A stretch of DNA of 64,000 nt from Candidatus Magasanikbacteria bacterium RIFOXYD1_FULL_40_23 (lineage in GTDB: Bacteria; Patescibacteriota; Patescibacteriia; Magasanikbacterales; GWA2-37-8), in assembly GCA_001783215.1 (NCBI GenBank), contig MFRA01000005.1, positions 254,322 through 318,321 of the forward strand, read 5' to 3'. Under the pieces are notes generated by a model. It was not told where the DNA came from. It saw only the letters and a list, made by a program, of their open reading frames with translations, and searched no databases. Positions within the stretch are counted from its first letter, which is position 1. Each line of letters opens with the position of its first letter. This document shows, piece after piece, positions 3,087 to 60,622 of the stretch. A program made the translations under genes and the position numbers.

Positions 3087-4187
3087 TTATTTAGCTAGCT
3101 TCCAATTTGGATCGGCTTTTATTTTTTTCCAAGAAGTAAAATCTTTTTGTTTTGCGTGATGGTATCCGGCCACGGCAATCATAGCCCCATTATCCATAGA
3201 GTATTTTAGTTCTGGGAGTTGGAAGCGGGTGTTAGGGAAGTTGGCAGTAATTTCTGATTGTAGAGTTTCGCGCAGTTTTTTGTTGGCGCTTACTCCGCCG
3301 CATAGAATAATTGTTTTTGGTTTGTATTCTGCTGCAGCAGTCATAGTTTTGGCTACCAGCACATCTATAATCGCTTGCTCAAAACTGGCGCAGAAATCAT
3401 TTATATTCAAAGATTCTTTATTGTCACGCAGCCAATAAAGAGCGGAAGTTTTTAGGCCGGAAAAACTAAAATTATAATCTTTGCTGTTAAGCATCGGTCT
3501 AGGGAATTTTATTGCTTCGGTGTTGCCAGTTAGTGCAAGTTTAGAAATTTGCGGTCCGCCAGGGTAGGGTAGTCCGATTAATTTTGCACCTTTATCAAAA
3601 CATTCTCCGGCCGCATCGTCTATGGTAGCGCCAAGCAGTTTGTATTTGCCGTGATCTTTCATAATAATAAGTTCGGTGTGTCCGCCGCTTACCACCAAAC
3701 ATAGAGCTGGAAATTGTAAATCCGTTTTGTCATTCTGAGGCGCAGACGAAGAATCCCTTTTGTCCGACCGAGAGGGATCCTTCACTCTGTTCAGGATGAC
3801 AGTGTCGTAGTTTTTTATTTGGGTAGAATAAATATGTCCTTCTATATGGTTTGTAGAAACCAAAGGCAGGTCTGTTATATAAGACAGTGTGCGGGCAGCT
3901 TCTACACCTACCAATAATCCAGTGATAAGTCCTGGTCCAGAAGTAACAGCTACAGCGTCTGGTTTTGGTTGATTTTCTAACACCGCTTCTATAAGCGGTA
4001 CAATTTTTTCGGCATGCATACGGCCGGCAATTTCTGGAACTACGCCGCCATATTTTTTGTGTACATCAATTTGAGAAGCGGTTTTTTCGGACAAAATAAA
4101 ACAGCCTTTATCGGAGCAGTCTAGCAAGGCTACGGAAGTGTCATCACAAGATGATTCAATACCGAGTATTCGCATATTTATAACCAA
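3087..4187 (-). CDS. tsaD: tRNA N6-adenosine threonylcarbamoyltransferase TsaD (Kae1/Gcp family). Likely true start is the second Met (MRILGIESSCDD, about 4175). Carries an in-frame ~26-aa insertion from a palindromic repeat.
   Basis: MRILGIESSCDDTSVAL, HIEGH, VSGGHTELI and DNGAMIA motifs. Relative to E. coli TsaD (recalled from memory), the HIEGH-to-VSGGH spacing is ~26 aa longer, and that stretch coincides with the repeat at 3728-3801. Confidence 0.88.
   Translation of the reverse strand: MVINMRILGIESSCDDTSVALLDCSDKGCFILSEKTASQIDVHKKYGGVVPEIAGRMHAEKIVPLIEAVLENQPKPDAVAVTSGPGLITGLLVGVEAARTLSYITDLPLVSTNHIEGHIYSTQIKNYDTVILNRVKDPSRSDKRDSSSAPQNDKTDLQFPALCLVVSGGHTELIIMKDHGKYKLLGATIDDAAGECFDKGAKLIGLPYPGGPQISKLALTGNTEAIKFPRPMLNSKDYNFSFSGLKTSALYWLRDNKESLNINDFCASFEQAIIDVLVAKTMTAAAEYKPKTIILCGGVSANKKLRETLQSEITANFPNTRFQLPELKYSMDNGAMIAVAGYHHAKQKDFTSWKKIKADPNWKLAK
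3728..3801. repeat. Family-A palindromic element, copy 1, in frame inside tsaD (encodes ...NRVKDPSRSDKRDSSSAPQNDKTD...)
   Basis: tgtcattctgaggcgcagacgaagaatcccttttgtccgaccgagagggatccttcactctgttcaggatgaca. The ends gtcattctga / tcaggatgac are inverted repeats with a central GGATCC. Matches copies at 14967, 51288, 52651, 59991 and 60612. Confidence 0.85.
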
Positions 4188-4467: not shown

Positions 4468-4505
4468 GGCACGCTTAGCGTGCCTATAACGACGCTAAGC
4501 GTCGT
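4468..4505. repeat. Twin palindromes built on the core ACGCTTAGCGT (ggcACGCTTAGCGTgcc ... acgACGCTAAGCGTcgt)
   Basis: Two perfect palindromes 4 nt apart, immediately 3' of tRNA(CAU) and 28 nt upstream of the GIY-YIG start. The same twin arrangement recurs at 23967-24003. Confidence 0.7.
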
Positions 4506-4578
4506 GTCAAGGGAGAGATTTGAACTCTCGACCTCAGCGTTATGAATGCTGCGCTCTTACCAACTGAGCTACCCTGAC
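4505..4578 (-). tRNA. tRNA with CAU anticodon (Met elongator/initiator, or Ile2 if lysidinylated); CCA not encoded
   Basis: Minus-strand read GTCAGGGTAGCTCAGTTGGTAAGAGCGCAGCATTCATAACGCTGAGGTCGAGAGTTCAAATCTCTCCCTTGACA folds as a cloverleaf: 7-bp acceptor, D arm GCTC/GAGC, anticodon loop TTCATAA, T arm GAGAG/CTCTC with TTCAAAT loop. Confidence 0.8.
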
Positions 4579-5990: not shown

Positions 5991-6062
5991 GGTCTCATCG
6001 TCTAATGGTTAGGACATTGCCCTTTCAAGGCGAAAATACGGGTTCAATTCCCGTTGGGACTA
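5991..6062 (+). tRNA. tRNA-Glu (anticodon UUC)
   Basis: GGTCTCA TC GTCT AATGGTT AGGAC A TTGCC CTTTCAA GGCGA AAAT ACGGG TTCAATT CCCGT TGGGACT A. Canonical cloverleaf similar to bacterial tRNA-Glu, with anticodon TTC at 6024-6026. Confidence 0.85.
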
Positions 6063-6233: not shown

Positions 6234-6273
6234 TTAACAAAACACCATCACTAATATGATGGTGTTTTCGTGT
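6229..6273. repeat. Direct repeat DR-1 (terminator-like hairpin) at the left edge of the RSD cassette
   Basis: actacttaacaaaacaccatcactaatatgatggtgttttcgtg; about 90% identical to 8869-8914. Confidence 0.7.
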
Positions 6274-8868: not shown

Positions 8869-8914
8869 CACTACTTAACAAAAAACACCTTCACTAAAAT
8901 GATGGTGTTTTTGT
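8869..8914. repeat. Direct repeat DR-2 (terminator-like hairpin) at the right edge of the RSD cassette
   Basis: actacttaacaaaaaacaccttcactaaaatgatggtgtttttgtt; about 90% identical to DR-1 with a 2-nt indel. Confidence 0.7.
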
Positions 8915-14966: not shown

Positions 14967-15040
14967 TGTCATTCTGAGCAAGGCGAAGAATCTCTTTCGT
15001 TTGGATGTAAAGGGATCCTTCATTACATTCAGGATGACAA
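14967..15040. repeat. Family-A palindromic element, copy 2 (intergenic)
   Basis: tgtcattctgagcaaggcgaagaatctctttcgtttggatgtaaagggatccttcattacattcaggatgacaa. Confidence 0.85.
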
Positions 15041-23002: not shown

Positions 23003-23085
23003 TATATAGGGGCTAAAGCCACATATATGCTCATTCACTCAGAAATAAATAAGTTTACTTATTTATTTCTTCATTCATTTCGCAT
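23003..23085 (+). repeat. Family-C leader module, copy 1, ending at the start codon of the 23086 gene
   Basis: tatataggggctaaagccacatatatgctcattcactca + palindrome gaaataaataag-ttt-acttatttatttc + ttcattcatttcgcat + ATG. Confidence 0.75.
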
Positions 23086-23496
23086 ATGAAAGAATTTTTT
23101 GTTAGCTTATTTGTAATTATATTTGTAGCAGCGGTAGTTGTGTTTGGAGTTTTTCCTCCGAAGGTTTATGTTACATTTATTTCTGCGCAGAATAGTGTCT
23201 TGGCTGCAGAGCAAAAACAAATTACAGATGCTTTGCTTTGGCAATATAGTTATAATCCTTTGCGAGTAGGGCGAGAGTACCAGATAAATATGCCTAGCCC
23301 CGCACCCTTGAAAAATCCGGCAAAACAAGATTACCAATATTTTATTTGGGCAAGTGTAAAATCCCTATCTTTTGTAAAAGAATCAGAAGCAGGGGATAAT
23401 ACTTGGAATTTGGTTTTGGCAAAAGATAAAAATGGCAACTGGAAAATTGTAGCTGACAAGCTTTGTTGCGGGCAAGGGGTTGATGAATGGTATTAA
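23086..23496 (+). CDS. Hypothetical membrane-anchored protein
   Basis: N-terminal TM FFVSLFVIIFVAAVVVFGVF. 136 aa. Confidence 0.5.
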   Translation: MKEFFVSLFVIIFVAAVVVFGVFPPKVYVTFISAQNSVLAAEQKQITDALLWQYSYNPLRVGREYQINMPSPAPLKNPAKQDYQYFIWASVKSLSFVKESEAGDNTWNLVLAKDKNGNWKIVADKLCCGQGVDEWY

Positions 23497-40742: not shown

Positions 40743-43153
40743 AGCAGAGTGATTTACCCCCTAATCAAACGAAAAACAATTTAGCTGTCGCAGCTAAAAA
40801 CTTTTCGGAAGTTTCGGCAACGGCTGTCTTTTTAGTGGGTATTTTGGTTTTAATTGGGTGGCAGTTTGATATTGGATTTTTAAAGAGTGTGCATAGCGGC
40901 TTTGTTACAATGAAGCCAAACACAGCTTTAGGGGTTGTATTTTTGGGTTTATCTTTGTGGTTGTTGCAAGAAAAACGAATGCGTAGCTGGTTAAAGTATT
41001 TGGGCTGGGGCTCTGCGCTTTTTGTATTATTTATAGGCCTTACTGCAGTGCTGGAGCATATAACCGGGATAAATTTAGGTGTTGATATGCTTTTATTTCG
41101 AGAGTCTAGCCCAGCACCTTTTACTACTTTTCCGGGTCGAATGGCTTTAAATACCGCATTTTGCTTTGTTTTTTTTGGGATTTCTCTTTTGTACTTAAAT
41201 ATAAAAACAAAAAACGGGCTGCACCTGTCGGTAATCCCGGCTGTTTTTAGTGGTTTGGTAGCCTTGGTGGTTATAGTAGGTTATTTTTATGATATATCTC
41301 AATTTTATTTTGGAGCAAAGTTTGATACGCTTATGGCTTTGCATACAGCCCTTGCGTTTTTTATCGCTAGTTTGGGGGTTTTGTTTGCTCGTCCAGAAGG
41401 CAACCTAACCAGGGTTTTTATAGGTGCTAATTTATCGGGTGTTACTATTCGTCGTCTATTTCCGCTGGCCTTTTTGGTGCCGTTGCTTTTTATTTGGTTA
41501 GAACAAGTTGGAAATCGGTATCATTTATATGGCCATGATTTTGGGATGTCCATCACTGCTGCTGCCAGCATCGTGGTGCTCGCCACGCTTATTTGGGTGC
41601 ACGCTGTTTTGATGGAAAAGAAAGAAGACGCTCGTTTAAAAGCAGTCAAGGAGTTGGTTATAGCTACAGAAGAAGCAAGGCGGCTTTCATTTTTAGTTGA
41701 AAACACAATTGAGGCTGTCGCAATAGTTGATTTAGAAGATCATAACGCTTTGCGCTATGTTAACAGCGCTTGGGAAAAAATGTTTGGCTATAAGAAAAAT
41801 GAAGTAGAAAACAAAAGAGAGCCCTTAATTATTGATGCTATCAAGAAAAATCCTGCGTTGTATAAAAAGTTTAAAGCTTCCATAGCGGCGCATGTTCCGT
41901 TTTATGCGGAAATGGAATGGGAAAGAAAAGATGGAAAGTTGGTACCTGTAGAAGTGTTTACCACTCCCACTCAAGATCCAAATACCGGGAAGTATATTTG
42001 GTTTAATACTATCCGCGATATAAGTGAACGCAAACAAGCACAAGGTAAGCTTCTGAAAGAGAAAAGGGTGTCTGAATTATTAGCTAAGGATTTAAAAAAG
42101 TTTCAATTAGCAGTAGATTCTTCTTCGGACCATATTATGATTACCGATGCCGAAGGGAAAATTTTATATGGAAATAAGGCGATAGAGTCTATTACGGGTT
42201 ATGCTATCAGTGAAATTATAGGGAAAACCGTTGGTCAAGTTTGGGGTGGGCATATGCCCAAAGAGTTTTATGTTAAATTATGGCATAAAATAAAAACAGA
42301 AAAAAAGATGTTTGTAGGAGAGCTAACTAATTACAGAAAGGATGGCACGCCATACACGGCCGAGGTACGAATAAGTCCTATTTTGTTTGATGACGGTGAA
42401 GTTAATTTTTTTGTTGGTGTCGAGCGAGACATTACCAGGATGAAAGAAGTAGACAAAATGAAATCGGAGTTTGTTTCTCTAACCTCTCATCAGCTCAGCA
42501 CTCCGCTTACAGCTATAAAATGGTATGTTGAAATTTTGTTAAAAAAGAAGCATGGATCCGAAGATAAGAAAAATCTGAAACAGATATATGCTAGCAACGA
42601 ACGAATGATCAGATTGATTAGTGATTTGTTAGATGTGTCTAGAATTGAGTCTGGAAACAAGTTTGCTATTATTTTAAAACCTAAAAACATCGCTTCTTTA
42701 ATAAAAGAGATTGTAGATACGTCTTTAATTTCTATAAAGACTAAGCATCGTCAGGGAGTAATAAAATTAGAAGATAAATTTCCTGAAGTTTTGAAATTAG
42801 AAATTGATGAAAATAAAATACGCCAGGTTTTTCAAAATCTCATTGATAATGCTATAAATTACTCTGTGGATAGAATTAAAATATCTGTTGGATGCAAAGA
42901 AGAAGGTGGCCAGATTGTTTTTCATGTTAAGGATACAGGTATTGGCATACCCAAAGTACAACAGGGTCGTGTTTTTGAGAAATTCTTTCGTGCCGACAAT
43001 ACAGCTTTGCTCAAATCTCAGGGCACTGGTTTGGGGTTGTACCTGTCCAAAGCTATTGTAGAGGGGCATGGAGGAAAAATACGGTTTGAATCCGAAGAGG
43101 GTGCGGGAACTACCTTCTACTTTTCTTTGCCGTTAAATCGTGGTAAGCTGTAG
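40739..43153 (+). CDS. Sensor histidine kinase (multi-TM N-terminal sensor, two PAS domains, HisKA, HATPase_c). Start taken at the ATG overlapping the upstream stop (ATGA).
   Basis: About 8 TM helices in the first 330 aa. PAS-like EAVAIVDLEDHNALRYVNSAWEKMFGY and DHIMITDAEGKILYGNKAIESITGY. H-box LTSHQLSTPLTAIKWYVEIL. N/G-boxes VFQNLIDNAINYS...GTGLGLYLSKAIVEGHGGKI. Confidence 0.85.
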   Translation: MKQSDLPPNQTKNNLAVAAKNFSEVSATAVFLVGILVLIGWQFDIGFLKSVHSGFVTMKPNTALGVVFLGLSLWLLQEKRMRSWLKYLGWGSALFVLFIGLTAVLEHITGINLGVDMLLFRESSPAPFTTFPGRMALNTAFCFVFFGISLLYLNIKTKNGLHLSVIPAVFSGLVALVVIVGYFYDISQFYFGAKFDTLMALHTALAFFIASLGVLFARPEGNLTRVFIGANLSGVTIRRLFPLAFLVPLLFIWLEQVGNRYHLYGHDFGMSITAAASIVVLATLIWVHAVLMEKKEDARLKAVKELVIATEEARRLSFLVENTIEAVAIVDLEDHNALRYVNSAWEKMFGYKKNEVENKREPLIIDAIKKNPALYKKFKASIAAHVPFYAEMEWERKDGKLVPVEVFTTPTQDPNTGKYIWFNTIRDISERKQAQGKLLKEKRVSELLAKDLKKFQLAVDSSSDHIMITDAEGKILYGNKAIESITGYAISEIIGKTVGQVWGGHMPKEFYVKLWHKIKTEKKMFVGELTNYRKDGTPYTAEVRISPILFDDGEVNFFVGVERDITRMKEVDKMKSEFVSLTSHQLSTPLTAIKWYVEILLKKKHGSEDKKNLKQIYASNERMIRLISDLLDVSRIESGNKFAIILKPKNIASLIKEIVDTSLISIKTKHRQGVIKLEDKFPEVLKLEIDENKIRQVFQNLIDNAINYSVDRIKISVGCKEEGGQIVFHVKDTGIGIPKVQQGRVFEKFFRADNTALLKSQGTGLGLYLSKAIVEGHGGKIRFESEEGAGTTFYFSLPLNRGKL

Positions 43154-43189
43154 GGTAATAAAGGCGGGGTTTAATTTAGTAAGAATATC

Positions 43190-43416
43190 TATAGGGGCTA
43201 AAGCCCGCGGCGCGCTCACTCATTTCGATTATATGGGCTAAAGCCACATATATACTCATTCGCTCATAAATAATTTCATTAGAAAATAATTGAGCAAGCT
43301 CATTATTTTCTCACTCATTATTTAACTCACTCACTTCGTATATATAGTTAAACATATATTTTCACTCACTCGGAAATAAATAAGCAAGCTCATTTATTTC
43401 CTCATTCATTTCAAAT
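43190..43416 (+). repeat. Family-C leader module, copy 3 (tandem, with an extra truncated head), ending at the start codon of the 43417 response regulator
   Basis: ataggggctaaagcc-cgcggcgcg-ctcactcatttcg, then tatatgggctaaagccacatatatactcattcgctca ... palindrome ggaaataaat-aagcaagctc-atttatttcc + tcattcatttcaaat + ATG. Numerous TCACTCA/TCATTCA reiterations. Confidence 0.75.
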
Positions 43417-43788
43417 ATGAAAAAAATTCTTATAGTAGAGGACGAATTGGCGTTATTGTATGCTTTAGCATCTCAGTTTGATAAAAAAGAATTTAAAGTT
43501 CTTCAGGCTGTGGATGGCGAAGAAGGCTTAAAAACTGCCCTAAAGTCACATCCGGATTTAATTTTATTGGACTTGCTTATGCCGAAAATGGATGGCATGT
43601 CTATGTTAAAAGAATTGCGCAAGGATTCTTGGGGTAAGGGTGTAAAAGTAATAATTTTAACCAACCTAAGTGATGCAGAAAAAATTGATGAAGCGTTAAA
43701 GCAGGGGACATATGATTATTTAGTAAAAAAAGATTGGAACATTTCCGAAGTAATTGAAAAAGTGAAAGCTAGTCTGGGTATGAAATAG
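43417..43788 (+). CDS. Single-domain response regulator (CheY-like receiver)
   Basis: KILIVEDE...LLDLLMPKMDGMSMLKELR...KVIILTNL...YDYLVKK. Confidence 0.85.
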   Translation: MKKILIVEDELALLYALASQFDKKEFKVLQAVDGEEGLKTALKSHPDLILLDLLMPKMDGMSMLKELRKDSWGKGVKVIILTNLSDAEKIDEALKQGTYDYLVKKDWNISEVIEKVKASLGMK

Positions 43789-43792
43789 TGGT

Positions 43793-45400
43793 ATGCTGTT
43801 GTGGTTGGAAAAGATAAAAAGCGCCATGCTTCAATGGGTAATTGCGTGGCATGACTTCGTTAAATCAAAAAATAAAATGCTTATTGCGTTTTGTTTTTGT
43901 TTTATAGTGGGTGCCGGCGTATTCTCTCTTTTAGAAAATAATGGATCCTTATTTTATTTGTATCTTTTGTTATTCATCATTCTGTTTTTTGTAATAATTT
44001 TTTGGCATAAAAAATATATAAGATTTTTGTGTCTATGTCTGCTGTTTTTTATATTGGGGGCGTGTAGATTTTTGATCAGTATCCCAGAAAAAAATTTTGC
44101 GAGAGTGGAATTCTATAATGGAGAAAAGAAGGTGTTGCGAGGGTTTGTATCCAGTGAGCCGGATATTGGGTTAAGTGATGCCAGGTATGTTGTGCGGGTG
44201 GAGAGTGTAAAAGAAGATCAAAACTCTAAATCCGTGTCTGGCAATATTTCTGTTAAAACCAGGATTTATCCCGAATATAAATATGGCGACACGCTAGAAA
44301 TAGAATGTTTATTGCAAGAGCCAGCCAATTTTACCACCGCCTCAGCGGGGTCCCGCCTCATGGCGGCGAAAGATAGTAAATTCAATTATATAAAGTATCT
44401 AGCCAAACAGGGTGTGTGGTCGATTTGCAGTAATCCGAATATAAAAAATTTGGACGAAAATAAAGGTAATATTTTGGTAAGCTTTATGTTAAAAATAAAA
44501 AGTAAAATAAAAGTTCAAATAGCCAGTCTGTGGCCGGAGCCGAACAGTAGCCTAATGGCCGGGTTGCTCTATGGCAGTCGTAGTGGCTTGCCGCAAGAGT
44601 TGGTAGATAATTTTAGTCGTACGGGAGTTAGTCATATTGTGGCTGTGTCCGGATACAATGTTAGTATAATTGCCGTGGCTTTAAATATCATTTTAATTTA
44701 TGCGGGTTTGTTTAGGCGGCAATCTTTTTGGTTTTTAATATCTTTAATTTTGGCGTTTGTATTTTTTACCGGAGCCACTGCTTCGGTGGTGCGAGCGGGA
44801 ATAATGGCTATAATTATTTTGGCTGCCCAACATATCGGCCGGATGTCGGCGGTAGGCAGAGCGCTAGTTTATGCAGCTGTTGTCATGTTAGTTCTTAATC
44901 CGTATTTGTTAGTTTGGGACGCTGGTTTCCAGCTTTCTTTTTTATCTACACTCGGATTGGTTTATCTTTCTCCGATTATTCAATATTTTGTCGATAGTAA
45001 ATTTAAAATCGAAAGTAATTTATGGAAGTCGGCTTTAGAAGTTTTTATTACTACAATTTCTGCGATTTTGGTCACTTTGCCGCTTATCATGTATCAGTTT
45101 GGTAGATTTTCTGTTGTTGCACCGCTAGTTAATATTTTAATTTTGTGGATTGTGCCATGGCTTATGTTGTTTGGGTTCATATCTTTGGTTTTTAGTTTTA
45201 TATTTTTCCCAGTTGGGCAGCTGGTTGCTTGGGGCACAGACCTGGGAGTTAGGTATGTTATAATGGTAGTGGATTGGTTTGGAAGCAAGAGTTGGAGTGC
45301 CTTTAATTTGCGAATTTCTTTGCCGACAATGGTTGTTATTTACCTAGTATTAATCTTATTTATATGGCGAAAAAAGCCAAAGTTTTATCTTCAGAAGTAG
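43793..45400 (+). CDS. comEC: ComEC/Rec2 DNA-internalisation channel (DUF4131 plus competence domain; no MBL domain in this ORF). True start may be MLIAFCF, about 43877.
   Basis: Multi-TM throughout. GVSHIVAVSGYNVSIIA (ComEC SGxH-like block). Family-B repeat copy overlaps the annotated N-terminus. Confidence 0.75.
   Translation: MLLWLEKIKSAMLQWVIAWHDFVKSKNKMLIAFCFCFIVGAGVFSLLENNGSLFYLYLLLFIILFFVIIFWHKKYIRFLCLCLLFFILGACRFLISIPEKNFARVEFYNGEKKVLRGFVSSEPDIGLSDARYVVRVESVKEDQNSKSVSGNISVKTRIYPEYKYGDTLEIECLLQEPANFTTASAGSRLMAAKDSKFNYIKYLAKQGVWSICSNPNIKNLDENKGNILVSFMLKIKSKIKVQIASLWPEPNSSLMAGLLYGSRSGLPQELVDNFSRTGVSHIVAVSGYNVSIIAVALNIILIYAGLFRRQSFWFLISLILAFVFFTGATASVVRAGIMAIIILAAQHIGRMSAVGRALVYAAVVMLVLNPYLLVWDAGFQLSFLSTLGLVYLSPIIQYFVDSKFKIESNLWKSALEVFITTISAILVTLPLIMYQFGRFSVVAPLVNILILWIVPWLMLFGFISLVFSFIFFPVGQLVAWGTDLGVRYVIMVVDWFGSKSWSAFNLRISLPTMVVIYLVLILFIWRKKPKFYLQK
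43818..43872. repeat. Family-B hairpin repeat, copy a (RR-comEC junction)
   Basis: aagcgccatgcttcaatgggtaattgcgtggcatgacttcgttaaatcaaaaaat; the stem gccatgc/gcgtggc is retained. Confidence 0.65.
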
Positions 45401-46014
45401 GCTATAATTTGGCTGCTGATGTTTATGATGAAAATGAAAATTATCTAAATAGTTTTGAGCAAGGAGAGCTTATCCCTTTGCTTGGTGCGTTGGATGGCAA
45501 AAGAGTTTTAGATGTTGGGGCAGGCACGGGCCGGCTATCTTTGCCTTTGGTAAGTAGAGGTGCACACGTTACGGCTCTAGATGTATCGCCTAAAATGTTA
45601 GATTTAATAAAAAAGAAGCAGCGCCGCGTTTCAATGAACGTTACGCGGCATGATTCCGTTGAATCAAAAATTACCACTGTGGTTGGTGATGCGGAAAGTT
45701 TGCCTTTTGAAAATAATACTTTTGATATTGTGACAGCTGCGTTTTTAATTGTACATCTCAAAAATCCGACCAGATTTTTTGACGAAGCGTACAGAGTCTT
45801 AAAAGACGGAGGGATTTTGGTGGTGACCAATATTAATCAGAAGGATCCGCCAACAGTAAAAACAAAAGAGGGAAAAATAATTATAGAATCTTTTTATCAT
45901 CGCCCAGAAAAAGTTGTAGAAATATTAGAATCGTTGGCGTATGGAATTGAAGAAAATGTTTTTGTAAAAGAGGGGAGTCTTTGGGTAGATCAGATTGTGG
46001 TGGCGAGGAAATAA
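45364..46014 (+). CDS. Class I SAM-dependent methyltransferase carrying an in-frame Family-B repeat (~17 aa: QRRVSMNVTRHDSVESK)
   Basis: Motif I VLDVGAGTGRLSL; post-I DVSPKML; motif II/III GDAESLPFENNTFDIV...AFLIVHL. Confidence 0.8.
   Translation: MAKKAKVLSSEVGYNLAADVYDENENYLNSFEQGELIPLLGALDGKRVLDVGAGTGRLSLPLVSRGAHVTALDVSPKMLDLIKKKQRRVSMNVTRHDSVESKITTVVGDAESLPFENNTFDIVTAAFLIVHLKNPTRFFDEAYRVLKDGGILVVTNINQKDPPTVKTKEGKIIIESFYHRPEKVVEILESLAYGIEENVFVKEGSLWVDQIVVARK
45618..45672. repeat. Family-B hairpin repeat, copy b (inside the methyltransferase CDS, in frame)
   Basis: agcagcgccgcgtttcaatgaacgttacgcggcatgattccgttgaatcaaaaatt; stem gccgcgt/acgcggc. Confidence 0.7.
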
Positions 46015-46044
46015 ATCCTTCTTCTCCCCACTTCTTTAGTAGAA

Positions 46045-46509
46045 GTGGGCAAGAATCGCTCGCTAACCTTTATCACCCCATTTTGTCAGCAAAACGGGGT
46101 GATACCCCAAAACTGCCTCGCGGATGAATATCTCACAGCCAGTTCGGACTCATTTTTCTCTGACTCTGAACTCACCCCCTCGGGGGTTCAAACACAGAGC
46201 CAGACACGAAAAACTCATCTCGAACTGCTTGGTTCGATATTCATATGCTCGGTTACCGACCAGACACTGTTGGGACAACGGTTCGATATCCGAGCATATA
46301 CGAACCTGCGTGTACTTGCCACGGTGAAATGGAGTGATCCCGACTTTTTAGTTGGGATTGGCGATCATGCGACTATGCTCATTGATCGCCAAAACGACAT
46401 GAGCCGATGGAAGTACCGTCAGGTGAGTATCAGCTCGGGAACTTTTCCCTCCAGCTTTTGGTTACAAAAGGTGGATGAAGGTATTTCTTTTAAAGAAAGC
46501 GGCAAGTAA
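46045..46509 (+). other. Doubtful ORF (154 aa) in a GC-elevated, hairpin-dense tract between the methyltransferase and the MBL gene. Possibly a remnant of inserted DNA or a structured RNA rather than a gene.
   Basis: Hairpins ccccacttc-tttagta-gaagtggg and caccccatttt-gtcagc-aaaacggggtg. A ~20-bp inverted repeat ggttcgatattcatatgctcgg...ccgagcatatacgaacc with an internal direct repeat ggttcgatat. No protein motif recognised. Confidence 0.2.
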
Positions 46510-46528
46510 ATGGTGATACAATATAATT

Positions 46529-47395
46529 ATGAATAGCAAAAGTAAAAAAATTTTATTGGCCGCTAGCGCAGTTCTAATTATTTCACTGGGCCTGCTTGGT
46601 TATTTTCTATATAAATCCAGCACTAAACACAGTTTTAAAATTACTTTTTTTGATATCGGACAAGGCGATGCGGCTCTTATTCAGTTTGATAATGGCCAGA
46701 AAATGCTGGTAGATTGTGGTGCGGATAGAAAAATTTTAGCCAAGCTTGGCCGGGCGTTGCCTTTTTATGACCGCACCATAGATTATGTTTTGGCTACTCA
46801 TTCGGATTTAGATCATTATGGTGGATGTGTAGACGTTCTCAAAAATTATAAAGTAAAAGAAATTATTTTAAATAATCGTAAAAAAGAATATGATCCGTAT
46901 TGGCGAGAATGGGACAAAGCAGTAAAAAACGAAGGGGCAAATATAAAAATTATAGACAGTCCGCAAGTTTGGACAATTGCTAGTTCTACTTTGGAATTTT
47001 TATCTCCCGACTCATCTCTGGCGTTGGAAGTTGGGGCAGATGATAGCAATAATTATTCTATTGTTTTTAGATTAAAGAATCAGGAAAAGAGTTTTTTGTT
47101 TACTGCGGATATGGAAACCCCGCTCGAGAACGCGTTGTTGAAAAAGTATTGTGTTAGCACTTCCACCAAACCTTGCACGGTTTTGGAGTCAGATATTTTA
47201 AAAGTTGGTCATCATGGCAGTGACAGCTCTTCAGGCGAGGAGTTCTTAAGAGCAGTAAATCCACAAAAAGCCATAGTGTCCAATGGTAAAAACAATCGGT
47301 ACGGCCACCCATCTTTGCGAGTTTTAAAGAAAGTGGAACGTTCGGGAGCGGAAATACTGCGAACCGATAAATTGGGCAATATTATAGAGTATTGA
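46529..47395 (+). CDS. Membrane-anchored MBL-fold metallo-hydrolase (ComEC C-terminal beta-lactamase-like domain as a separate protein)
   Basis: N-terminal TM LLAASAVLIISLGLLGYFLY. FFDIGQGDAALIQF...LATHSDLDHYGG (HxHxDH) ...VGHHGSDSS. Confidence 0.75.
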   Translation: MNSKSKKILLAASAVLIISLGLLGYFLYKSSTKHSFKITFFDIGQGDAALIQFDNGQKMLVDCGADRKILAKLGRALPFYDRTIDYVLATHSDLDHYGGCVDVLKNYKVKEIILNNRKKEYDPYWREWDKAVKNEGANIKIIDSPQVWTIASSTLEFLSPDSSLALEVGADDSNNYSIVFRLKNQEKSFLFTADMETPLENALLKKYCVSTSTKPCTVLESDILKVGHHGSDSSSGEEFLRAVNPQKAIVSNGKNNRYGHPSLRVLKKVERSGAEILRTDKLGNIIEY

Positions 47396-47510
47396 CATAA
47401 ATAGCCTAGGATGGTATTATTAGAGCATAAGAAGAGCTTCCATATAGGAACGCTCTTTTTTGTTAGCCATTTTTGTGCTAATATAATAACTAATTATAAT
47501 TTAATATACT

Positions 47511-48728
47511 ATGTCAGATATTACAAAGGCTATACAAGTATTATGCGAGGAAAAAAATCTTTCTTACGAATCCGTAATGGAAGCTATTGAGTTTGCTCTG
47601 GCTGCCGCTTACCGCAAGGATTTTGGTAATAAACAGCAAAATATCAAGGTAAAATTTGATCCAGAAAAAGGCGATATGAAAGCTTGGGATGTAAAAACTG
47701 TCGTAGAAGATATTGCTGAGGATGCTCTTTTGGTTGCTCAAGAAGAGTTAACCAAAAGACGAGAAAAAGCCAAAGAAGAAAAGCGAGAATTAACCGAAGA
47801 AGAAACAGAAGATTTGCCTCGTTTTAATCCAAAGACAGAGCTCATGCTTAGTGCTGCCAAAGAAATAGATAAAAAAGTAAAAGTAGGAGAAGTGATGGAA
47901 ATTCCTTTGGAAATCCAGCACGAATTTGGTCGTATGGCTGCTCAAACTGCCAAGCAAGTTATTATCCAAAAAATTCGCGAGGCCGAAAGAGGTATCATGT
48001 TTAATGACTTTAAAGGCCAAGAAGGACAGCTTGTGATGGGAACAATCCAAAGAGCGGAAGCCCGCAAAGTTTTGGTAGACTTTGGAAAAGTTACCGGAGT
48101 TTTACTTGCCGAACATCAAAATAGTCGCGATCATTATCGCCCAGGTGCACGCATGAAGTTTTTGTTGTTGTCTGTGCAAATGACTCCTCGCGGTTTAGAA
48201 GTGCTTTTGTCTCGCAGTGATGTGGCTATGGTACGAGAAATATTCAAACAAGAAATTCCAGAAATTAGCGATGGCTTAATAGAAATAAAAGGTATTGCTC
48301 GTGAGGCAGGCTTCCGTTCCAAAGTAGCTGTATTTACAACCGACAAAGCCATAGACCCAATCGGTTCTTGTATTGGTCAAAAGGGAAGTCGTATAAATAC
48401 TATTATAGAAGAATTGGGTGGAGAAAAAATTGATATTATTCAATATAGCGAAGATGCAAAAGAATATATTGCTCACGCGCTTGCTCCGGCCAAAATCTTG
48501 AATGTAAAATTAAACGAATCAGACAAGATTGCCGAAGTTGGCGTTGCTCCGGATCAGTTCTCTTTGGCTATTGGCCGCAACGGACAAAATGTACGTCTAG
48601 CTGCCAATCTTACCGGTTGGAGAATAGATGTAGTAGAGGAAGGTGGAAGCGAAAAATTGTCTAGCGATGAAGTAAAACCAGAGGCTGTAGAGGTTGCAGA
48701 AGAAGTAGAAGAGAAAAAAGAGGAATAA
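47511..48728 (+). CDS. nusA: Transcription termination/antitermination factor NusA
   Basis: N-terminal domain, S1-like domain (GQEGQLVMGTIQRAEARKVLVDFG), two KH domains (IGSCIGQKGSRINTIIEELGGEKIDII; AIGRNGQNVRLAANLTGWRIDV) and an acidic tail. Confidence 0.9.
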   Translation: MSDITKAIQVLCEEKNLSYESVMEAIEFALAAAYRKDFGNKQQNIKVKFDPEKGDMKAWDVKTVVEDIAEDALLVAQEELTKRREKAKEEKRELTEEETEDLPRFNPKTELMLSAAKEIDKKVKVGEVMEIPLEIQHEFGRMAAQTAKQVIIQKIREAERGIMFNDFKGQEGQLVMGTIQRAEARKVLVDFGKVTGVLLAEHQNSRDHYRPGARMKFLLLSVQMTPRGLEVLLSRSDVAMVREIFKQEIPEISDGLIEIKGIAREAGFRSKVAVFTTDKAIDPIGSCIGQKGSRINTIIEELGGEKIDIIQYSEDAKEYIAHALAPAKILNVKLNESDKIAEVGVAPDQFSLAIGRNGQNVRLAANLTGWRIDVVEEGGSEKLSSDEVKPEAVEVAEEVEEKKEE

Positions 48729-48737
48729 AACATTAGG

Positions 48738-48830
48738 TCGGGCTTCAATGGACGCGCCGGCCGCGTTTCAAAGGACGTGACGCGGCATGATTACGTCGAA
48801 TCAATTTCGTTAAATCAAATCTTAAATTTT
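48738..48830. repeat. Family-B hairpin repeat, copy c (nusA-yidC intergenic; partially reiterated)
   Basis: gggcttcaatggacgcgcc + ggccgcgtttcaaaggacgtgacgcggcatgattacgtcgaatcaa + tttcgttaaatcaaatc. Confidence 0.65.
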
Positions 48831-48831
48831 T

Positions 48832-49590
48832 ATGATAGCTCTATTTCACACCGTGCTCTACCAACCGATATTTAATGTTTTTGTCTTCTTATACAATATC
48901 ATTCCCGGACACGATGTGGGTGTGGTAATTTTAGCTATCACTATTTTAGTGCGTTTAGTTTTGTATCCTCTAACCAGTGCTTCAATAAAAGCCCAGCGTT
49001 CCTTGCAGGATTTACAGCCAAAAATGGCGGCTATCAAATTGCAATATCCAAATGATAAACAAAAACAAACGGAGGCTACGATGGAGATGTATAAAAACAA
49101 CAAAGTAAATCCGTTTACTTCTTGTTTGCCAATGTTGTTGCAGCTGCCAATTTTGATTGCTCTGTATATGGTATTGCAGGACGGCTTAAATTCCAAAAAT
49201 TTAGCAGATTCGCTATATTCTTTTGTTGGTAATCCAGGCACAATCAATCAGATTTCTCTTGGCTTAATAAATATGGCCAAGCCAAACTATGTTCTAGCAT
49301 TTATGGCGGGGTTAGCTCAATACTTACAAGCCAAGACGATGAGTACCAAAAATCCACCGCCACAAGCAGGTGAAGGAGCTAAAGACGAAGCCATGATGTC
49401 TATGATGAATAAACAGATGCTTTATCTTATGCCGGTTATGACTGTAGTAATTGGTTTCAATCTTCCTGGCGGACTTACTTTGTACTGGTTCTTCGGTACT
49501 GTGCTTATGGCATTGCAGCAAATTTGGCTTTCCAAATCTAGTAAAAATGAAGGTAATGGCAATGTTATAGAAGGTAAATTGGTTAAGTAA
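48832..49590 (+). CDS. yidC: Membrane protein insertase YidC (short, Gram-positive/Oxa1-like form)
   Basis: PLTSASIKAQRSLQDLQPKMAAIKLQYPNDKQKQTEATMEMYKNNKVNPFTSCLPMLLQLPILIALY, typical of the YidC/Oxa1 core. Confidence 0.85.
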   Translation: MIALFHTVLYQPIFNVFVFLYNIIPGHDVGVVILAITILVRLVLYPLTSASIKAQRSLQDLQPKMAAIKLQYPNDKQKQTEATMEMYKNNKVNPFTSCLPMLLQLPILIALYMVLQDGLNSKNLADSLYSFVGNPGTINQISLGLINMAKPNYVLAFMAGLAQYLQAKTMSTKNPPPQAGEGAKDEAMMSMMNKQMLYLMPVMTVVIGFNLPGGLTLYWFFGTVLMALQQIWLSKSSKNEGNGNVIEGKLVK

Positions 49591-50917: not shown

Positions 50918-52263
50918 TTTTGCAAGAAGTTCAACATGTGTTAGCGTTGTTGTTTTTGTTTTTGCTGCCATGGCAAACCAGATATATTTGGAAGTATGGC
51001 CAATTAAATGGCGGCTATTGGGAGTATGGCACGGGCAGTCTGTATGTAACAGAGATTTTATTGTGGGTTATTTTGGTATTATTTTTTGTTAATAATTTTT
51101 TAAAGAAAGAAGTTTGGGTCGGTTTGTTTAAAAATAAAAATGTTTTTTCTTTGGTGTTCGCTGGGTTTTTAGCTGTGGTGGGCGCATCAGTAATGTTGAG
51201 CGAAAATTTTGGCATCTCCTATAATTATATTTTCCGTATTTTGGAGGGCATGGCCATAATGACGGTGCTGTTTCGGAGCGGGCAGTCTGTCATCCTGAAC
51301 GGAGTGAAGGATCCCTTAAACACAAATGAAAGGGATTCTTCGGTCGCTTTTCTTCCTCAGAATGACAGATATGTAGTTGCTATTTGGCTTGGCGCGGTAG
51401 GGCAGGGAGCGCTGGCGATTTATCAGTTTTTGACCCAGCATGTTTTTGCCAGCAAGTGGCTAGGTATGGCAGCGCAAGAGTCGTACAACTTGGGCCCAAG
51501 CGTAATACAATTTGCTGACCAGAGGTGGTTGCGCGCCTACGGTAGTTTTGGTTCGCCAAATTCTTTGGGGATTTATTTGGCTGTGTTATTTGTATTAGGT
51601 TTTATTTTATATTTTAAAACGCAAATACCGCGCTATAAAATTTTAATTAGCGTAGGTCAATTATTTATTTTATCTGGATTGTTGCTTTCTTTTTCTCGCG
51701 GGGCGTGGTTGGCAGCTTTGGTTGGTCTGGCATCTCTTTTTATTGTTTTATTTTTTAAACAAAAAGATTTTTTACGAGATTTTATAAAACAGATCGTATT
51801 TGCTTTGGGTGTAGCTATATTTTGGATTATTATTTTTTATCCAGTTTTTAACGCCAGATTTAATTTGCAAAATCGTTTGGAAGCCACGTCTGTTTCCGAA
51901 AGAAAAGGGCAGTATAGCGAATCTTTATCTTTTATTAAATTAAATCCAATTTTTGGGGTTGGGCCGGGCGTATATACTTTTGCTTTGGCCAAAAAATATC
52001 CAGATTTAGCTTCGTGGCAGCTGCAGCCAATACATAATATTTATTTACTTATTCTCGTAGAGATGGGCATATTTGGTATGTTGGCTATATTTTTATCAGT
52101 TGCCAGTATTGCTAGACTGATACTTAAAAATAACTTAATTTACGCACCAGTTTTGACGGCTTTGTTTGCTTCTGGAATGCTAGATCATTGGTTGGCCAGC
52201 CTGTTTACAGGCATGGTTTTTTGGTGGGTAGTCTTGGGTTTAGGCCTAAAAAAGAACCCTTGA
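50893..52263 (+). CDS. O-antigen ligase/polymerase-like (Wzy_C-type) polytopic membrane protein carrying an in-frame Family-A repeat
   Basis: About 10-12 TM helices with a periplasmic loop containing RGAWLAALVGL-type Wzy_C features. Inserted peptide VILNGVKDPLNTNERDSSVAFLPQNDRYV. Confidence 0.55.
   Translation: MEKQNRGLILQEVQHVLALLFLFLLPWQTRYIWKYGQLNGGYWEYGTGSLYVTEILLWVILVLFFVNNFLKKEVWVGLFKNKNVFSLVFAGFLAVVGASVMLSENFGISYNYIFRILEGMAIMTVLFRSGQSVILNGVKDPLNTNERDSSVAFLPQNDRYVVAIWLGAVGQGALAIYQFLTQHVFASKWLGMAAQESYNLGPSVIQFADQRWLRAYGSFGSPNSLGIYLAVLFVLGFILYFKTQIPRYKILISVGQLFILSGLLLSFSRGAWLAALVGLASLFIVLFFKQKDFLRDFIKQIVFALGVAIFWIIIFYPVFNARFNLQNRLEATSVSERKGQYSESLSFIKLNPIFGVGPGVYTFALAKKYPDLASWQLQPIHNIYLLILVEMGIFGMLAIFLSVASIARLILKNNLIYAPVLTALFASGMLDHWLASLFTGMVFWWVVLGLGLKKNP
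51288..51368. repeat. Family-A palindromic element, copy 3 (in frame in the Wzy-like gene)
   Basis: tgtcatcctgaacggagtgaaggatcccttaaacacaaatgaaagggattcttcggtcgcttttcttcctcagaatgacag. Confidence 0.85.
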
Positions 52264-59739: not shown

Positions 59740-60622
59740 TGAAGATTATCTAAAGCATCTTTGCCAAAAATACAGCCTTACCCCGTCCAAAAAATATGGG
59801 CAGAATTATTTGGTAAATCCAGAGCCGATAGAAAAAATGGTAAATGCAGCAGAAATTAAAAAAGACGATGTGGTAGTAGAAGTGGGTCCGGGATTTGGCG
59901 TTCTTACGTTAGCTTTGGCAGAAAAGGCAAAAAAGGTAATTTCATTTGAAATTGAAAAAAAATTGACGACCTACTGGAAAAATATTACAGGTCATCCTGA
60001 ACGGAGTGAAGGATCCCTCTTGGCGAACGAAAGGGATTCTTCGGCAGAGCCTCAGAATGACAAATACAAGAATATAGAAATAGTTTGGGGAAATATATTA
60101 TACGAATTTAAAGGTGATGGATTAAAAGCGGGGGAGTACAAAGTAGTAGCCAATTTACCATACCAAATTACTTCGCATGTAATTAGGAAATTTTTGGAAA
60201 TGGAAAACAATCCAGATATGCTGGTGCTTATGGTGCAAAAAGAGGTAGCCGAAAGAATTTGTGCGCAAGCAGGTGATATGTCTGTTTTGGCGGTATCTGT
60301 TCAATATTATGGCAAGCCAGAGATTGTCACTTTTGTGCCACGTTCATCTTTTTGGCCAATGCCGGCGGTGGATTCGGCAGTAATAAAGATAAAAATAAAT
60401 AAAGATAATGCAGGTGCTAAAAATAATAGCGAATCTTTTTTCAAGCTTGTAAAAGCTGGTTTTTCTAGTCGTAGAAAAATGCTTATCAAAAATCTAAGCG
60501 CGGTAGCGGACAGGCAAGCTCTACGCAACCTATTTAAAGAACTGGGTATAGACGAAAAGGTGCGAGCGCAAGAATTAAGCGTGGAGCAGTGGAAAGAAAT
60601 AGTTGCCAAATTGTCATTCTGA
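59714..60622 (+). CDS. rsmA: 16S rRNA (adenine1518/1519-N6)-dimethyltransferase RsmA/KsgA. Has an in-frame Family-A repeat, and its last residues plus stop codon come from a second repeat copy.
   Basis: YGQNYLVNPE, VVEVGPGFGVLTLAL, NLPYQITS. Inserted peptide GHPERSEGSLLANERDSSAEPQNDKYKN. C-terminal ...KLSF-TGA lies inside ttgtcattctga. Confidence 0.85.
   Translation: MYMSQKLFNEDYLKHLCQKYSLTPSKKYGQNYLVNPEPIEKMVNAAEIKKDDVVVEVGPGFGVLTLALAEKAKKVISFEIEKKLTTYWKNITGHPERSEGSLLANERDSSAEPQNDKYKNIEIVWGNILYEFKGDGLKAGEYKVVANLPYQITSHVIRKFLEMENNPDMLVLMVQKEVAERICAQAGDMSVLAVSVQYYGKPEIVTFVPRSSFWPMPAVDSAVIKIKINKDNAGAKNNSESFFKLVKAGFSSRRKMLIKNLSAVADRQALRNLFKELGIDEKVRAQELSVEQWKEIVAKLSF
59991..60062. repeat. Family-A palindromic element, copy 4 (in frame in rsmA)
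   Basis: gtcatcctgaacggagtgaaggatccctcttggcgaacgaaagggattcttcggcagagcctcagaatgaca. Confidence 0.85.

What the first reader, a model, noticed from the sequence alone, without database searches (positions are those of the whole stretch)
43818..48830. Second hairpin repeat family (Family B), with one copy in frame inside a SAM-methyltransferase
Three copies occur at 43818, 45618 and 48738. They share the consensus GCCGCGTTTCAAWGRACGTKACGCGGCATGAYTHCGTYGAATCAA, with a 7-bp stem (gccgcgt/acgcggc). In copy a the stem has compensatory changes (gccatgc/gcgtggc), which argues for a preserved hairpin. Copy b sits between motif I and motif II of a class I methyltransferase and adds ~17 aa (QRRVSMNVTRHDSVESK) without disrupting the frame. 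Copies a and c lie at gene junctions (RR/comEC, nusA/yidC). Together with Family A this indicates a genome rich in small structured mobile repeats that colonise coding sequence.
Basis: seen in the sequence. Interest (0 to 1): 0.55.

Follow-up and report, generated by a model that had tools for sequence, protein, structure and literature searches.

The report
45-nt double-hairpin insertion element of Patescibacteria
The three repeats are copies of a previously undescribed 45-base, two-hairpin DNA element that is scattered through the genomes of ultra-small groundwater bacteria (Patescibacteria). It inserts without leaving a duplication, and because it is exactly 15 codons long it sits in frame inside essential genes.

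Summary
The window holds exactly three copies, all on the + strand: 43821-43866, 45621-45665 and 48758-48802.

The same element was found 70 times (65 distinct sequences) in the window and Patescibacteria contigs fetched from public genomes and metagenomes. It folds into two hairpins: a 7-bp G+C-rich stem with a conserved 13-nt loop, and a 5-6 bp stem with a CGYT loop. Both hairpins are supported by compensatory changes.

Filled and empty orthologous sites show that the unit is exactly 45 nt. It sits in an A-tract, with no terminal inverted repeats and no target-site duplication.

Of 67 unique copies, 21 lie deep inside real genes, including ClpB, PPDK, UvrC, riboflavin synthase and Pol III delta. 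All 21 are in the one frame that reads (K/Q)RRVSxDGTRHDxVxS.

Copy b is such an insertion. The closest methyltransferase orthologues lack it, and the inserted residues are modelled as a low-confidence loop.

Best reading: a non-autonomous, selfish DNA element, an analogue of the Rickettsia palindromic elements. What mobilises it is unknown. Orthologous copies are unusually well conserved, so a host function cannot be excluded.

The element is a new member of a known kind.

The parts
43821..43866 (+). Copy a, a 46-nt variant with one extra base in the loop. P1 is 43823-43829 paired with 43844-43850. P2 is 43852-43857 paired with 43862-43867, with one C.A mismatch. It lies in frame in the N-terminal part of the longest ComEC ORF.
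   Evidence: Covariance-model hit of 61.1 bits. Fold. An orthologous copy in the syntenic relative is at L085 4457-4513, where the window's ATG 43877 reads ACG.
45621..45665 (+). Copy b, a canonical 45-nt unit. P1 is 45623-45629 paired with 45643-45649. P2 is 45651-45656 paired with 45661-45666. It is translated in frame as QRRVSMNVTRHDSVES inside the methyltransferase.
   Evidence: Covariance-model hit of 76.6 bits. The site is empty in L081 and L085. 20 of the 29 aligned orthologues have only the short KN-x-K loop with nothing inserted there. The insert residues are modelled as a low-pLDDT loop.
48758..48802 (+). Copy c, the inner 45-nt unit of a composite. P1 is 48760-48766 paired with 48780-48786. 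P2 is 48788-48792 paired with 48799-48803. It is intergenic between nusA and yidC.
   Evidence: Covariance-model hit of 57.8 bits. The site is empty in L083, L084 and L085.
48736..48757 (+). Degenerate head (P1-like hairpin) of the outer copy that encloses copy c.
   Evidence: It aligns with GCGTCGGGTTTCAATGGACGYTACCCGG of the composites in L038, L062 and L079. It forms a weak hairpin.
48803..48816 (+). Tail (P2 sequence AATTTCGTTAAATC) of the outer copy that encloses copy c.
   Evidence: Invariant in all four composites.
43793..45400 (+). ComEC-like competence protein, the host of copy a.
   Evidence: Pfam DUF4131 and Competence domains. Public gene calls start at 43826, inside the element.
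45364..46014 (+). Class I SAM-dependent methyltransferase, the host of copy b.
   Evidence: Pfam Methyltransf_11 covers residues 49-154 for 95 profile positions. Orthologue alignment.
47511..48728 (+). nusA, the gene upstream of copy c.
   Evidence: Pfam NusA_N and KH_5.
48832..49590 (+). yidC, the gene downstream of copy c.
   Evidence: Pfam 60KD_IMP.

Best explanation
The three repeats belong to a family of 45-nt non-autonomous insertion elements that is spread through Patescibacteria. The window comes from a Candidatus Magasanikbacteria genome.

Anatomy. The element is little more than two hairpins: GC, then P1 (a 7-bp G+C-rich stem with the loop UUCAAWGGACGNU), then AU, then P2 (GAUUY-CGYU-RAAUC).

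What is shown:
- The element enters A-rich tracts (..MA^AAW..).
- It has no terminal inverted repeats and makes no target-site duplication.
- Orthologous sites can be filled or empty.

Consequences of its length. At 15 codons the element never shifts the reading frame. One sense frame encodes a hydrophilic peptide, (K/Q)RRVSxDGTRHDxVxS. Copies in surface loops and linkers of proteins are therefore tolerated and translated. Copies in the frame that carries a stop codon, and the 46-nt variants, survive only between genes or at gene ends.

What is inferred:
- Both hairpins are conserved because whatever machinery copies or moves the element recognises them, most likely on single-stranded DNA. Insertion without a target-site duplication, without inverted-repeat ends and with a hairpin at each end is the style of HUH/Y1 (IS200/IS605-type) transposition. 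That step is an inference and was not shown.
- In the window, b and c are lineage-specific insertions. Copy a is an older insertion shared with a relative.
For: Family and structure:
- Genome and metagenome scans plus covariance-model searches give 70 hits, 65 of them distinct sequences.
- P1 and P2 are paired in 97.4% of cells. Compensatory changes occur at 5 pairs: CG/UA, GC/CG/AU, CG/GC, UA/CG and UA/CG. 0 of 500 shuffles reach the observed score, and slid controls pair at only 27-41%.

Insertion:
- Three clean filled/empty pairs differ by exactly the 45 nt GCGCC...RAATC, with no duplication of flanking bases. In L023/L066 (GAGAA^AAATA) and L069/L041 (GATAA^AAATTATG) the flanks at the junction are identical; in L039/L043 they are of equal length but carry substitutions. 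Four further pairs agree within one codon.
- In the window, copy b is absent from L081 and L085, and copy c is absent from L083, L084 and L085. Copy a is present in L085.

Coding copies:
- 21 of 67 unique copies lie at least 40 codons inside ORFs. All 21 are in frame C, none in frame A, and 4 are antisense at 2 sites.
- Pfam confirms the hosts and shows domains on both sides of, or spanning, the insert: ClpB linker, PPDK_N, UvrC, Lum_binding, PALP, CofD, Wzy_C, Pol III delta.
- In the AlphaFold2 model of the methyltransferase the pLDDT dips over the insert (residues 86-101): the 81-90 block averages 68, the 91-100 block 49, and residues 94-98 are below 50. The insert lies between helix 76-92 and strand 103-106.

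Action at the DNA level:
- The element occurs in both orientations relative to local genes (46 same, 18 opposite).
- There is no excess of sense-strand G.U pairs (8) over A.C pairs (14).
- The compensatory change in P2 alters the encoded amino acids (S..E to F..K), so the constraint acts on the nucleic acid and not on the protein.
- Identical 45-mers occur at unrelated sites in different contigs.
Against: - No transposase or other mobilising gene was found. A tblastn search with IS200 TnpA and RAYT sequences recalled from memory found nothing convincing in 624 kb of held DNA. Genes lying between inverted copies are housekeeping genes.
- Copies at orthologous sites are as conserved as the coding flanks, or more so. 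The composite upstream of ftsH is 100% identical in three genomes whose flanks are 73-79% identical, and ClpB copies are 92% against 77-82%. This is partly inflated because copies were ascertained through the 21-nt tail. It could still mean host-level selection, meaning a function.
- The total absence of frame A inside ORFs is not explained by tolerance of an open frame alone.
- The left flank of many filled sites reads TTACA where the empty allele reads something else, so the boundary or target rule is not fully settled.
- Copy number is modest: 3 in 64 kb, and about 11 extra copies in 411 kb of loci.
Confidence: 0.7

Rival explanations
1. The element is a host-functional cis-element. It would be a conserved structured motif, in DNA or RNA, bound by a Patescibacteria-wide factor for regulation, processing or chromosome organisation. 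Selection would then keep it at particular sites, including inside genes and just upstream of start codons.
For: - The unpaired loop (UUCAAWGGACG), the linker (GGCAUGAUU) and the CGYU loop are nearly invariant across distant lineages.
- Several orthologous sites are retained across genomes with conservation equal to or above the coding flanks: ClpB in L025/L040, ComEC in window/L085, msrA in L014/L054/L055, a CofE-like gene in L007/L022, and ftsH in L038/L062/L079.
- Many intergenic copies end 0-9 nt before an ATG.
Against: - Close relatives lack copies b and c without any substitute.
- Host genes and positions are unrelated to each other.
- Both orientations occur.
- The distribution across reading frames looks like a filter on what can be translated.
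- No Rfam family matches, even at E<=10.
- The copies do not coincide with terminator-like sites. Only one weak promoter-like match (9 of 12) overlaps copy a, and the region's total of such matches is no higher than in shuffles.
- Sense-strand G.U pairs are not favoured, as they would be for an RNA structure.
- Ascertainment through the tail pattern inflates the apparent conservation.
Confidence: 0.17
2. The same selfish element spreads through an RNA intermediate or by gene conversion and microhomology between A-rich flanks, rather than by a DNA-hairpin transposase.
For: - There is no target-site duplication and there are no inverted-repeat ends.
- For hairpin elements of Allomyces mitochondria, the lack of flank duplication led to the suggestion of transposition via RNA intermediates (PMC2800124).
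- Flanks are A-rich on both sides.
- Left-flank bases (TTACA) appear to travel with some copies.
- The same loop of the methyltransferase is hit repeatedly.
Against: - No reverse transcriptase was seen near the copies, although no systematic search was made.
- Copies antisense to local genes exist.
- Two of the three clean pairs have identical flanks with no conversion tract.
Confidence: 0.1
3. The similarity reflects a conserved peptide module (…TRHDSVES…) selected at the protein level, or chance G+C-rich palindromes.
For: The in-frame copies all encode the same peptide.
Against: - About two-thirds of copies are not inside ORFs.
- Conservation is at the nucleotide level. It includes compensatory changes that alter residues (S/E to F/K).
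- Chance expectation for the tail pattern in the window is 0.07 matches, against 3 found. In the genome-collection scan, 18 of 22 hits carry the full hairpin.
Confidence: 0.02

Closest known systems
Rickettsia palindromic elements (RPEs)
   Same: Both are small, hairpin-forming, non-autonomous repeats. Both are found between genes and, unusually often, in frame inside unrelated housekeeping genes, where they add a peptide compatible with the fold (review PMC10969869). The same holds here.
   Different: RPEs are about 150 bp, fall into ten families, and are restricted to Rickettsia. This element is 45 nt, has two hairpins, belongs to a different phylum-level lineage, and has insertion boundaries defined to the base with no target-site duplication. 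Sequence similarity to RPEs was not tested.
IS200/IS605-derived mini-elements (palindrome-associated transposable elements) and their Y1 HUH transposition
   Same: There are no terminal inverted repeats and no target-site duplication. Each end has a hairpin, filled and empty alleles differ seamlessly, and a short sequence is preferred on the left flank, with TTACA recurring. The comparison with IS608 (target TTAC, right end TCAA) rests on my own knowledge.
   Different: Only 2 nt separate the left boundary from the foot of P1, which leaves no room for an IS608-type 4-nt guide. The left flank is not one fixed tetranucleotide. No TnpA gene was found in the held DNA. At 45 nt the element is far shorter than the IS200/IS605-derived mini-elements I recall (size from my own knowledge).
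REP / REPIN elements mobilised by RAYT
   Same: Short G+C-rich imperfect palindromes are dispersed in the genome, and element-level selection keeps the hairpin.
   Different: There is no GTAG or CGTC tag at the foot of the stem (PMC3733652 defines these tags; the alignment is). The element is not restricted to extragenic sites. Copies are not arranged as inverted doublets, and the composites are direct. No RAYT gene was seen.
Classical bacterial MITEs (Correia/NEMIS, ERIC, QMITE of Coxiella)
   Same: They are non-autonomous and dispersed. Some occur in frame in ORFs (PMC10969869; PMC5896051 for Coxiella).
   Different: MITEs are defined by terminal inverted repeats and target-site duplications. 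Both were looked for here and are absent.
Repetitive hairpin-forming and double-hairpin elements and GC clusters of mitochondrial genomes
   Same: These are very short elements consisting of one or two hairpins. They are inserted mainly between genes and occasionally in coding regions, and the Allomyces elements lack flank duplications (PMC2800124).
   Different: They occur in organelle genomes, have unrelated sequences, and show no evidence of a fixed in-frame length.

Membership tests
MITE (classical) | Terminal inverted repeats | tested here: not met
   The 5' end GCGCCGCG and the 3' end GTTRAATC are not reverse complements of each other.
MITE (classical) | Target-site duplication flanking the element | tested here: not met
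   Three clean filled/empty pairs differ by exactly 45 nt with no duplicated flank base.
REP/REPIN | Conserved GTAG or CGTC tetranucleotide at the foot of the palindrome | tested here: not met
   The bases next to the P1 stem are GC on the 5' side and AU on the 3' side. CGTC occurs only inside loops of a few copies.
REP/REPIN | Extragenic location and inverted doublets | tested here: not met
   25 of 67 copies lie inside ORFs. The composites are direct, not inverted.
REP/REPIN | A RAYT gene in the same genome | tested here: inconclusive
   tblastn with a RAYT sequence recalled from memory found only an E=0.12 hit inside clpB, in 624 kb of fragments. Whole genomes were not available.
IS200/IS605-type mini-element | No inverted-repeat ends, no target-site duplication, seamless filled and empty alleles | tested here: met
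IS200/IS605-type mini-element | Imperfect hairpins near both ends | tested here: met
   P1 starts 2 nt from the left end. P2 ends at the right end. Both covary.
IS200/IS605-type mini-element | Insertion 3' of one fixed tetra- or pentanucleotide, read by a guide sequence 5' of the hairpin foot | tested here: inconclusive
   Counted over 44 copies, the base at -1 is A in 36 (82%) and the base at -2 is A or C in 36 (82%). TTACA recurs but is not universal. Only 2 nt precede P1, so an IS608-like guide does not fit.
IS200/IS605-type mini-element | A cognate Y1 (TnpA) transposase in the genome | tested here: inconclusive
   None was found in the held fragments. Complete genomes were not searched.
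Rickettsia palindromic elements | In-frame insertion into unrelated genes that adds a tolerated peptide | tested here: met
Rickettsia palindromic elements | Size of about 150 bp, membership of one of the described RPE families, Rickettsia host | tested here: not met
   The unit is 45 nt and the hosts are Patescibacteria. The RPE description is taken from PMC10969869. Sequence comparison with RPEs was not done.
Any Rfam RNA family (riboswitch, ribozyme, leader) | Match to a curated covariance model | tested here: not met
   No hit overlaps any copy at gathering thresholds or at E<=10.

The most novel reading that the evidence does not exclude
The element may be more than junk. One possibility is that it is the substrate of an as yet unidentified recombinase specific to Patescibacteria: a new class of ultra-short single-strand hairpin transposon, free of target-site duplications and inverted-repeat ends, whose length is tuned to 15 codons. 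The other possibility is that it has been domesticated as a conserved DNA or RNA signal. Either would explain why loops and linker are nearly invariant across distant lineages, why orthologous copies evolve no faster than coding sequence, and why a single reading frame is used inside genes.
Probability: 0.3. Interest if true: 0.75.

Novelty: new member of a known kind. Interest (0 to 1): 0.6.

Why it matters
Patescibacteria have tiny, streamlined genomes, so a selfish repeat living inside essential genes (clpB, uvrC, ppdK, ribE, holA) is unexpected. It gives a second, independent example of the 'selfish DNA inside proteins' phenomenon known from Rickettsia.

The element has practical consequences:
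- It misleads gene callers. The public ComEC call starts at an ATG created inside the hairpin.
- It inflates apparent protein divergence.
- It could be used to trace lineages.

The base-precise 45-nt boundaries, the absence of a target-site duplication, and the two covarying hairpins make the element a well-defined substrate for finding its mobilising enzyme. They also allow a test of whether a 15-residue insert is neutral or has been co-opted.

Tried and rejected
- Known RNA families. The Rfam gathering scan of the whole window and the E<=10 scan of 43000-49500 gave nothing at the copies.
- Terminator or promoter. None of the copies coincides with a terminator-like site. One weak promoter-like match (9/12) overlaps copy a, and the total count is below the shuffle mean. 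I also looked by eye for -35/-10 boxes in the consensus; the spacings of 12-13 or 24 nt do not fit.
- 5'-UTR riboswitch or leader. This was suggested by many copies ending 0-9 nt before an ATG. I dropped it after finding in-frame copies, antisense copies and empty orthologous sites.
- Pseudoknot between loop 1 (GACG) and loop 2 (CGUY). The bases are nearly invariant, so there is no covariation to test. Not pursued.
- CsrA-type GGA loop, parS, dif, integron attC (GTTRRRY), DNA-uptake sequence and orphan CRISPR repeat. I considered these from memory and set them aside on geometry or copy number. None was formally tested.
- Orientation tied to replication. GC skew is positive in the element's orientation in only 40 of 64 cases, so there is no such link.
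- Transposase nearby. The tblastn search with IS200 TnpA and RAYT was negative, and genes between inverted copies are ftsW and mreB.
- Phage carriage. There were 0 matches in viral contigs.
- Literature. Four searches found no description of such an element in the Candidate Phyla Radiation.

Full report
**Observation.**
The three copies are present as described. Shuffled sequence gives 0.00 and 0.07 expected matches. Each copy folds into the proposed 7-bp hairpin. Copies b and c also form a second, smaller hairpin, UGAUUY-CGUU-RAAUCA. Single-sequence fold z-scores are modest (-1.3 to -2.1), so the argument for structure rests on comparison between copies, not on folding energy. The window has about 39% G+C with positive GC skew throughout, and every gene near the copies is on the + strand.

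**Source.**
NusA of the window is encoded identically on 17 public contigs, among them GCA_001783315.1. The methyltransferase is named by NCBI as a protein of Candidatus Magasanikbacteria bacterium RIFOXYD1_FULL_40. The window therefore comes from a Patescibacteria (CPR) genome.

**Family.**
- A scan of one genome per species with the tail pattern gave 22 hits, and 18 of them carry the full upstream hairpin. These 18 lie in Patescibacteria MAGs or in TPA MAGs titled 'uncultured Gammaproteobacteria'. One of the latter (CAZUFD01) is syntenic with the window and is therefore mislabelled.
- A metagenome scan gave 52 more loci.
- I aligned 51 unique copies (A1) and built a covariance model from them.
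- With filters off, the model finds only the three copies in the 64-kb window. The next best score is 11.7 bits.
- In the fetched loci the model finds further copies that the exact pattern had missed. These include a subfamily with CGTGA in place of CATGA, and copies in the opposite orientation on the same contig.
- None was found in viral contigs.

**Structure.**
On 65 distinct sequences, 97.4% of cells form standard pairs. Five pairs carry changes on both sides: 9-54 CG/UA, 11-52 GC/CG/AU, 13-51 CG/GC, 15-49 UA/CG and 62-67 UA/CG. No shuffle out of 500 reaches the observed covariation score, and sliding the partners drops pairing to 27-41% (one search gave the same result on A1). Only three variable positions of P2 (Y, N and R) were left free by the search pattern. 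However, copies found by the model without that pattern show the same U-A/C-G alternation. The loop UUCAAWGGACG, the linker GGCAUGAUU and the CGYU loop are nearly invariant. Non-Watson-Crick cells comprise 8 G.U on the sense strand and 14 A.C, the latter being G.U on the other strand. There is thus no sign that the sense RNA is the selected folded species.

**Boundaries and mode of insertion.**
Several host genes occur both with and without the element among the loci I held. Nucleotide alignments of these pairs give three clean cases in which the only length difference is the 45 nt GCGCC…RAATC:

| Filled | Empty | Junction |
|---|---|---|
| L023 | L066 | GAGAA^AAATA |
| L069 | L041 | GATAA^AAATTATG |
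| L039 | L043 | …A^AARATATTC |

In the first two the flanks at the junction are identical, and in the third they are of equal length but carry substitutions. No flank base is duplicated or lost in any of the three. Four more pairs agree to within one codon in A-rich flanks. Flank composition confirms an A/T-rich target: the base before the unit is A in 82% of the 44 copies counted, and the first two bases after it are A in 89% and 73%. The unit has no terminal inverted repeats. It consists of 2 nt, P1 (27 nt), 2 nt and P2 (14 nt), which makes 45 nt, or 15 codons. Fifty-two of 65 distinct copies have this length, ten are one base longer, and three are shortened or expanded.

**Coding copies.**
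Of 67 unique copies, 21 lie at least 40 codons inside an ORF on the sense strand. All 21 are in the frame that reads (K/Q)RRVSxDGTRHD(S/F)V(E/K)S. None uses the other open sense frame, and four (two independent sites) use the single open antisense frame. Fourteen more copies are open in frame C into a downstream ORF, and three lie near a 3' end.

Pfam confirms that the hosts are ordinary genes, with domains on both sides of the insert or spanning it:
- the ClpB linker between Clp_N and the first AAA domain
- PPDK_N
- UvrC, between GIY-YIG and the RNase H-like domain
- the second lumazine-binding domain of riboflavin synthase
- a PLP enzyme
- CofD
- Wzy_C
- Pol III delta
- a VirD4-like ATPase

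The P2 compensatory change converts S..E into F..K between the ClpB copies of two genomes. The constraint is therefore on the nucleic acid, not on the peptide. The 46-nt variant was found only at gene starts or between genes. That is what a frame filter predicts.

**The three window copies.**
*Copy b.* Twenty of the 29 aligned orthologues have only a short KN-x-K loop at this site, including the closest (92% identity over aligned columns). The window protein has 16 residues in place of two. At the DNA level the site is empty in L081 and L085. In L082-L084 it is filled by a different subfamily, TTACA|GCGTCGCG…CGTGA…. On a neighbour-joining tree without bootstrap support, the window protein is sister to an empty allele, and the other filled alleles are scattered among empties. 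This implies repeated gain or repeated seamless loss at this loop. Two other homologues carry an unrelated 22-residue insert at the same place. In the AlphaFold2 model (mean pLDDT 78.4) the pLDDT dips over the insert (residues 86-101): the ten-residue blocks 81-90 and 91-100 average 68 and 49, and residues 94-98 are below 50. The insert lies between helix 76-92 and strand 103-106.

*Copy c.* The site is absent from three syntenic relatives. Copy c is a composite: an inner 45-nt unit sits inside a degenerate outer copy. The same architecture occurs upstream of ftsH in three other genomes.

*Copy a.* This copy is shared with the syntenic relative L085. There the window's ATG 43877 reads ACG, so ComEC must start upstream and read through the element. 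In the window the ORF from ATG 43793 does the same, while public gene calls start at the ATG inside the hairpin.

**Interpretation.**
Taken together, these features describe a non-autonomous DNA element that is filtered by selection on the host:
- base-precise 45-nt presence/absence differences at many unrelated sites
- both orientations relative to local genes (46 same, 18 opposite)
- identical 45-mers at unrelated sites
- depletion from coding sequence relative to the high gene density of these genomes
- a frame and length pattern that matches what can be translated

It works like the Rickettsia palindromic elements (PMC10969869) but is three times shorter and architecturally different. Insertion without a target-site duplication, without inverted-repeat ends and with a hairpin at each end resembles IS200/IS605-type single-strand transposition. 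This step is an inference. No transposase was found. The left flank is not a single fixed tetranucleotide, and there is no room for an IS608-type guide before P1. Hairpin elements of mitochondria that lack flank duplications have been suggested to move through RNA intermediates (PMC2800124), and I cannot exclude that here.

**What does not fit neatly.**
- Orthologous copies are at least as conserved as their coding flanks. The unbiased pair, window a against L085, is 82% identical with flanks at 78-79%. The ftsH composites are identical with flanks at 73-79%.
- Frame A is never used inside ORFs.
- Filled alleles often read TTACA at the left junction where the empty allele reads something else.
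- All three window copies lie within 5 kb of each other.

These points keep open a host-function reading, to which I assign about 0.17.

**Novelty.**
No Rfam family matches, and four full-text searches found no description of such an element in the CPR. I rate it a new member of a known kind, namely small structured selfish repeats that also colonise genes. Its unusually small, codon-exact double-hairpin form has now been defined to the base.

Noticed in passing
window 3776-3800(-), 14968-14992(+), 15014-15038(-), 51289-51313(+), 59991-60015(+): A second dispersed repeat, GTCATCCTGAACGGAGTGAAGGATC, has 5 copies against 0 expected by chance. Two of them form an inverted pair at 14968/15014. Some methyltransferase homologues have N-terminal extensions such as SSAQAPPRND and CHVVSRANSFLLAMT; from memory these resemble translations of small dispersed repeats, but no link to this one was tested.
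   Followed up: partly
window 43153-43417 and 23005-23100: The spacer between the histidine kinase and the response regulator is filled with other repeats: TATAGGGGCTAAAGCC units, CTCACTCA runs, and AAATAA-GCAAGCTC-TTATTT hairpins.
   Followed up: no
methyltransferase homologues P0007 and P0037 (alignment A2, columns 126-152): An unrelated 22-residue insert (RSSGMLDFPTKSKIWGKSAKN) sits in exactly the same loop as copy b, so this loop is a general hotspot for insertions.
   Followed up: no
L085 (CAZUFD010000001.1) and other TPA MAGs: MAGs titled 'uncultured Gammaproteobacteria' carry the element. One of them is gene-for-gene syntenic with this Magasanikbacteria window, which indicates a taxonomic mislabel in the records.
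   Followed up: partly
window 43793-43880: The ComEC start is ambiguous. ATG 43793, ATG 43826 (inside the P1 stem, created by the GCG-to-ATG change, and used by public gene calls) and ATG 43877 are all in frame.
   Followed up: partly
L004 1-2300: On one contig that carries the identical nusA, the region upstream of the metallo-beta-lactamase gene is replaced by a phage-integrase-like fragment and a helicase fragment. This is a strain-level rearrangement.
   Followed up: no
L012 4653-4724(-); L058 58-105(-) and 1534-1581(+): There are length variants of the element. One copy has about 20 extra G+C-rich bases inside the P1 loop. Two copies have a shortened P1 loop, giving a 41-nt core.
   Followed up: no
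window 6239-6271 and 8882-8914: A pair of 91%-identical hairpin sequences, AAAACACCWTCACTAAWATGATGGTGTTTT, look like rho-independent terminators (D17).
   Followed up: no
window 4505-4578(-) and 5991-6062(+): Two tRNA genes are the only Rfam matches at gathering threshold in the window.
   Followed up: no
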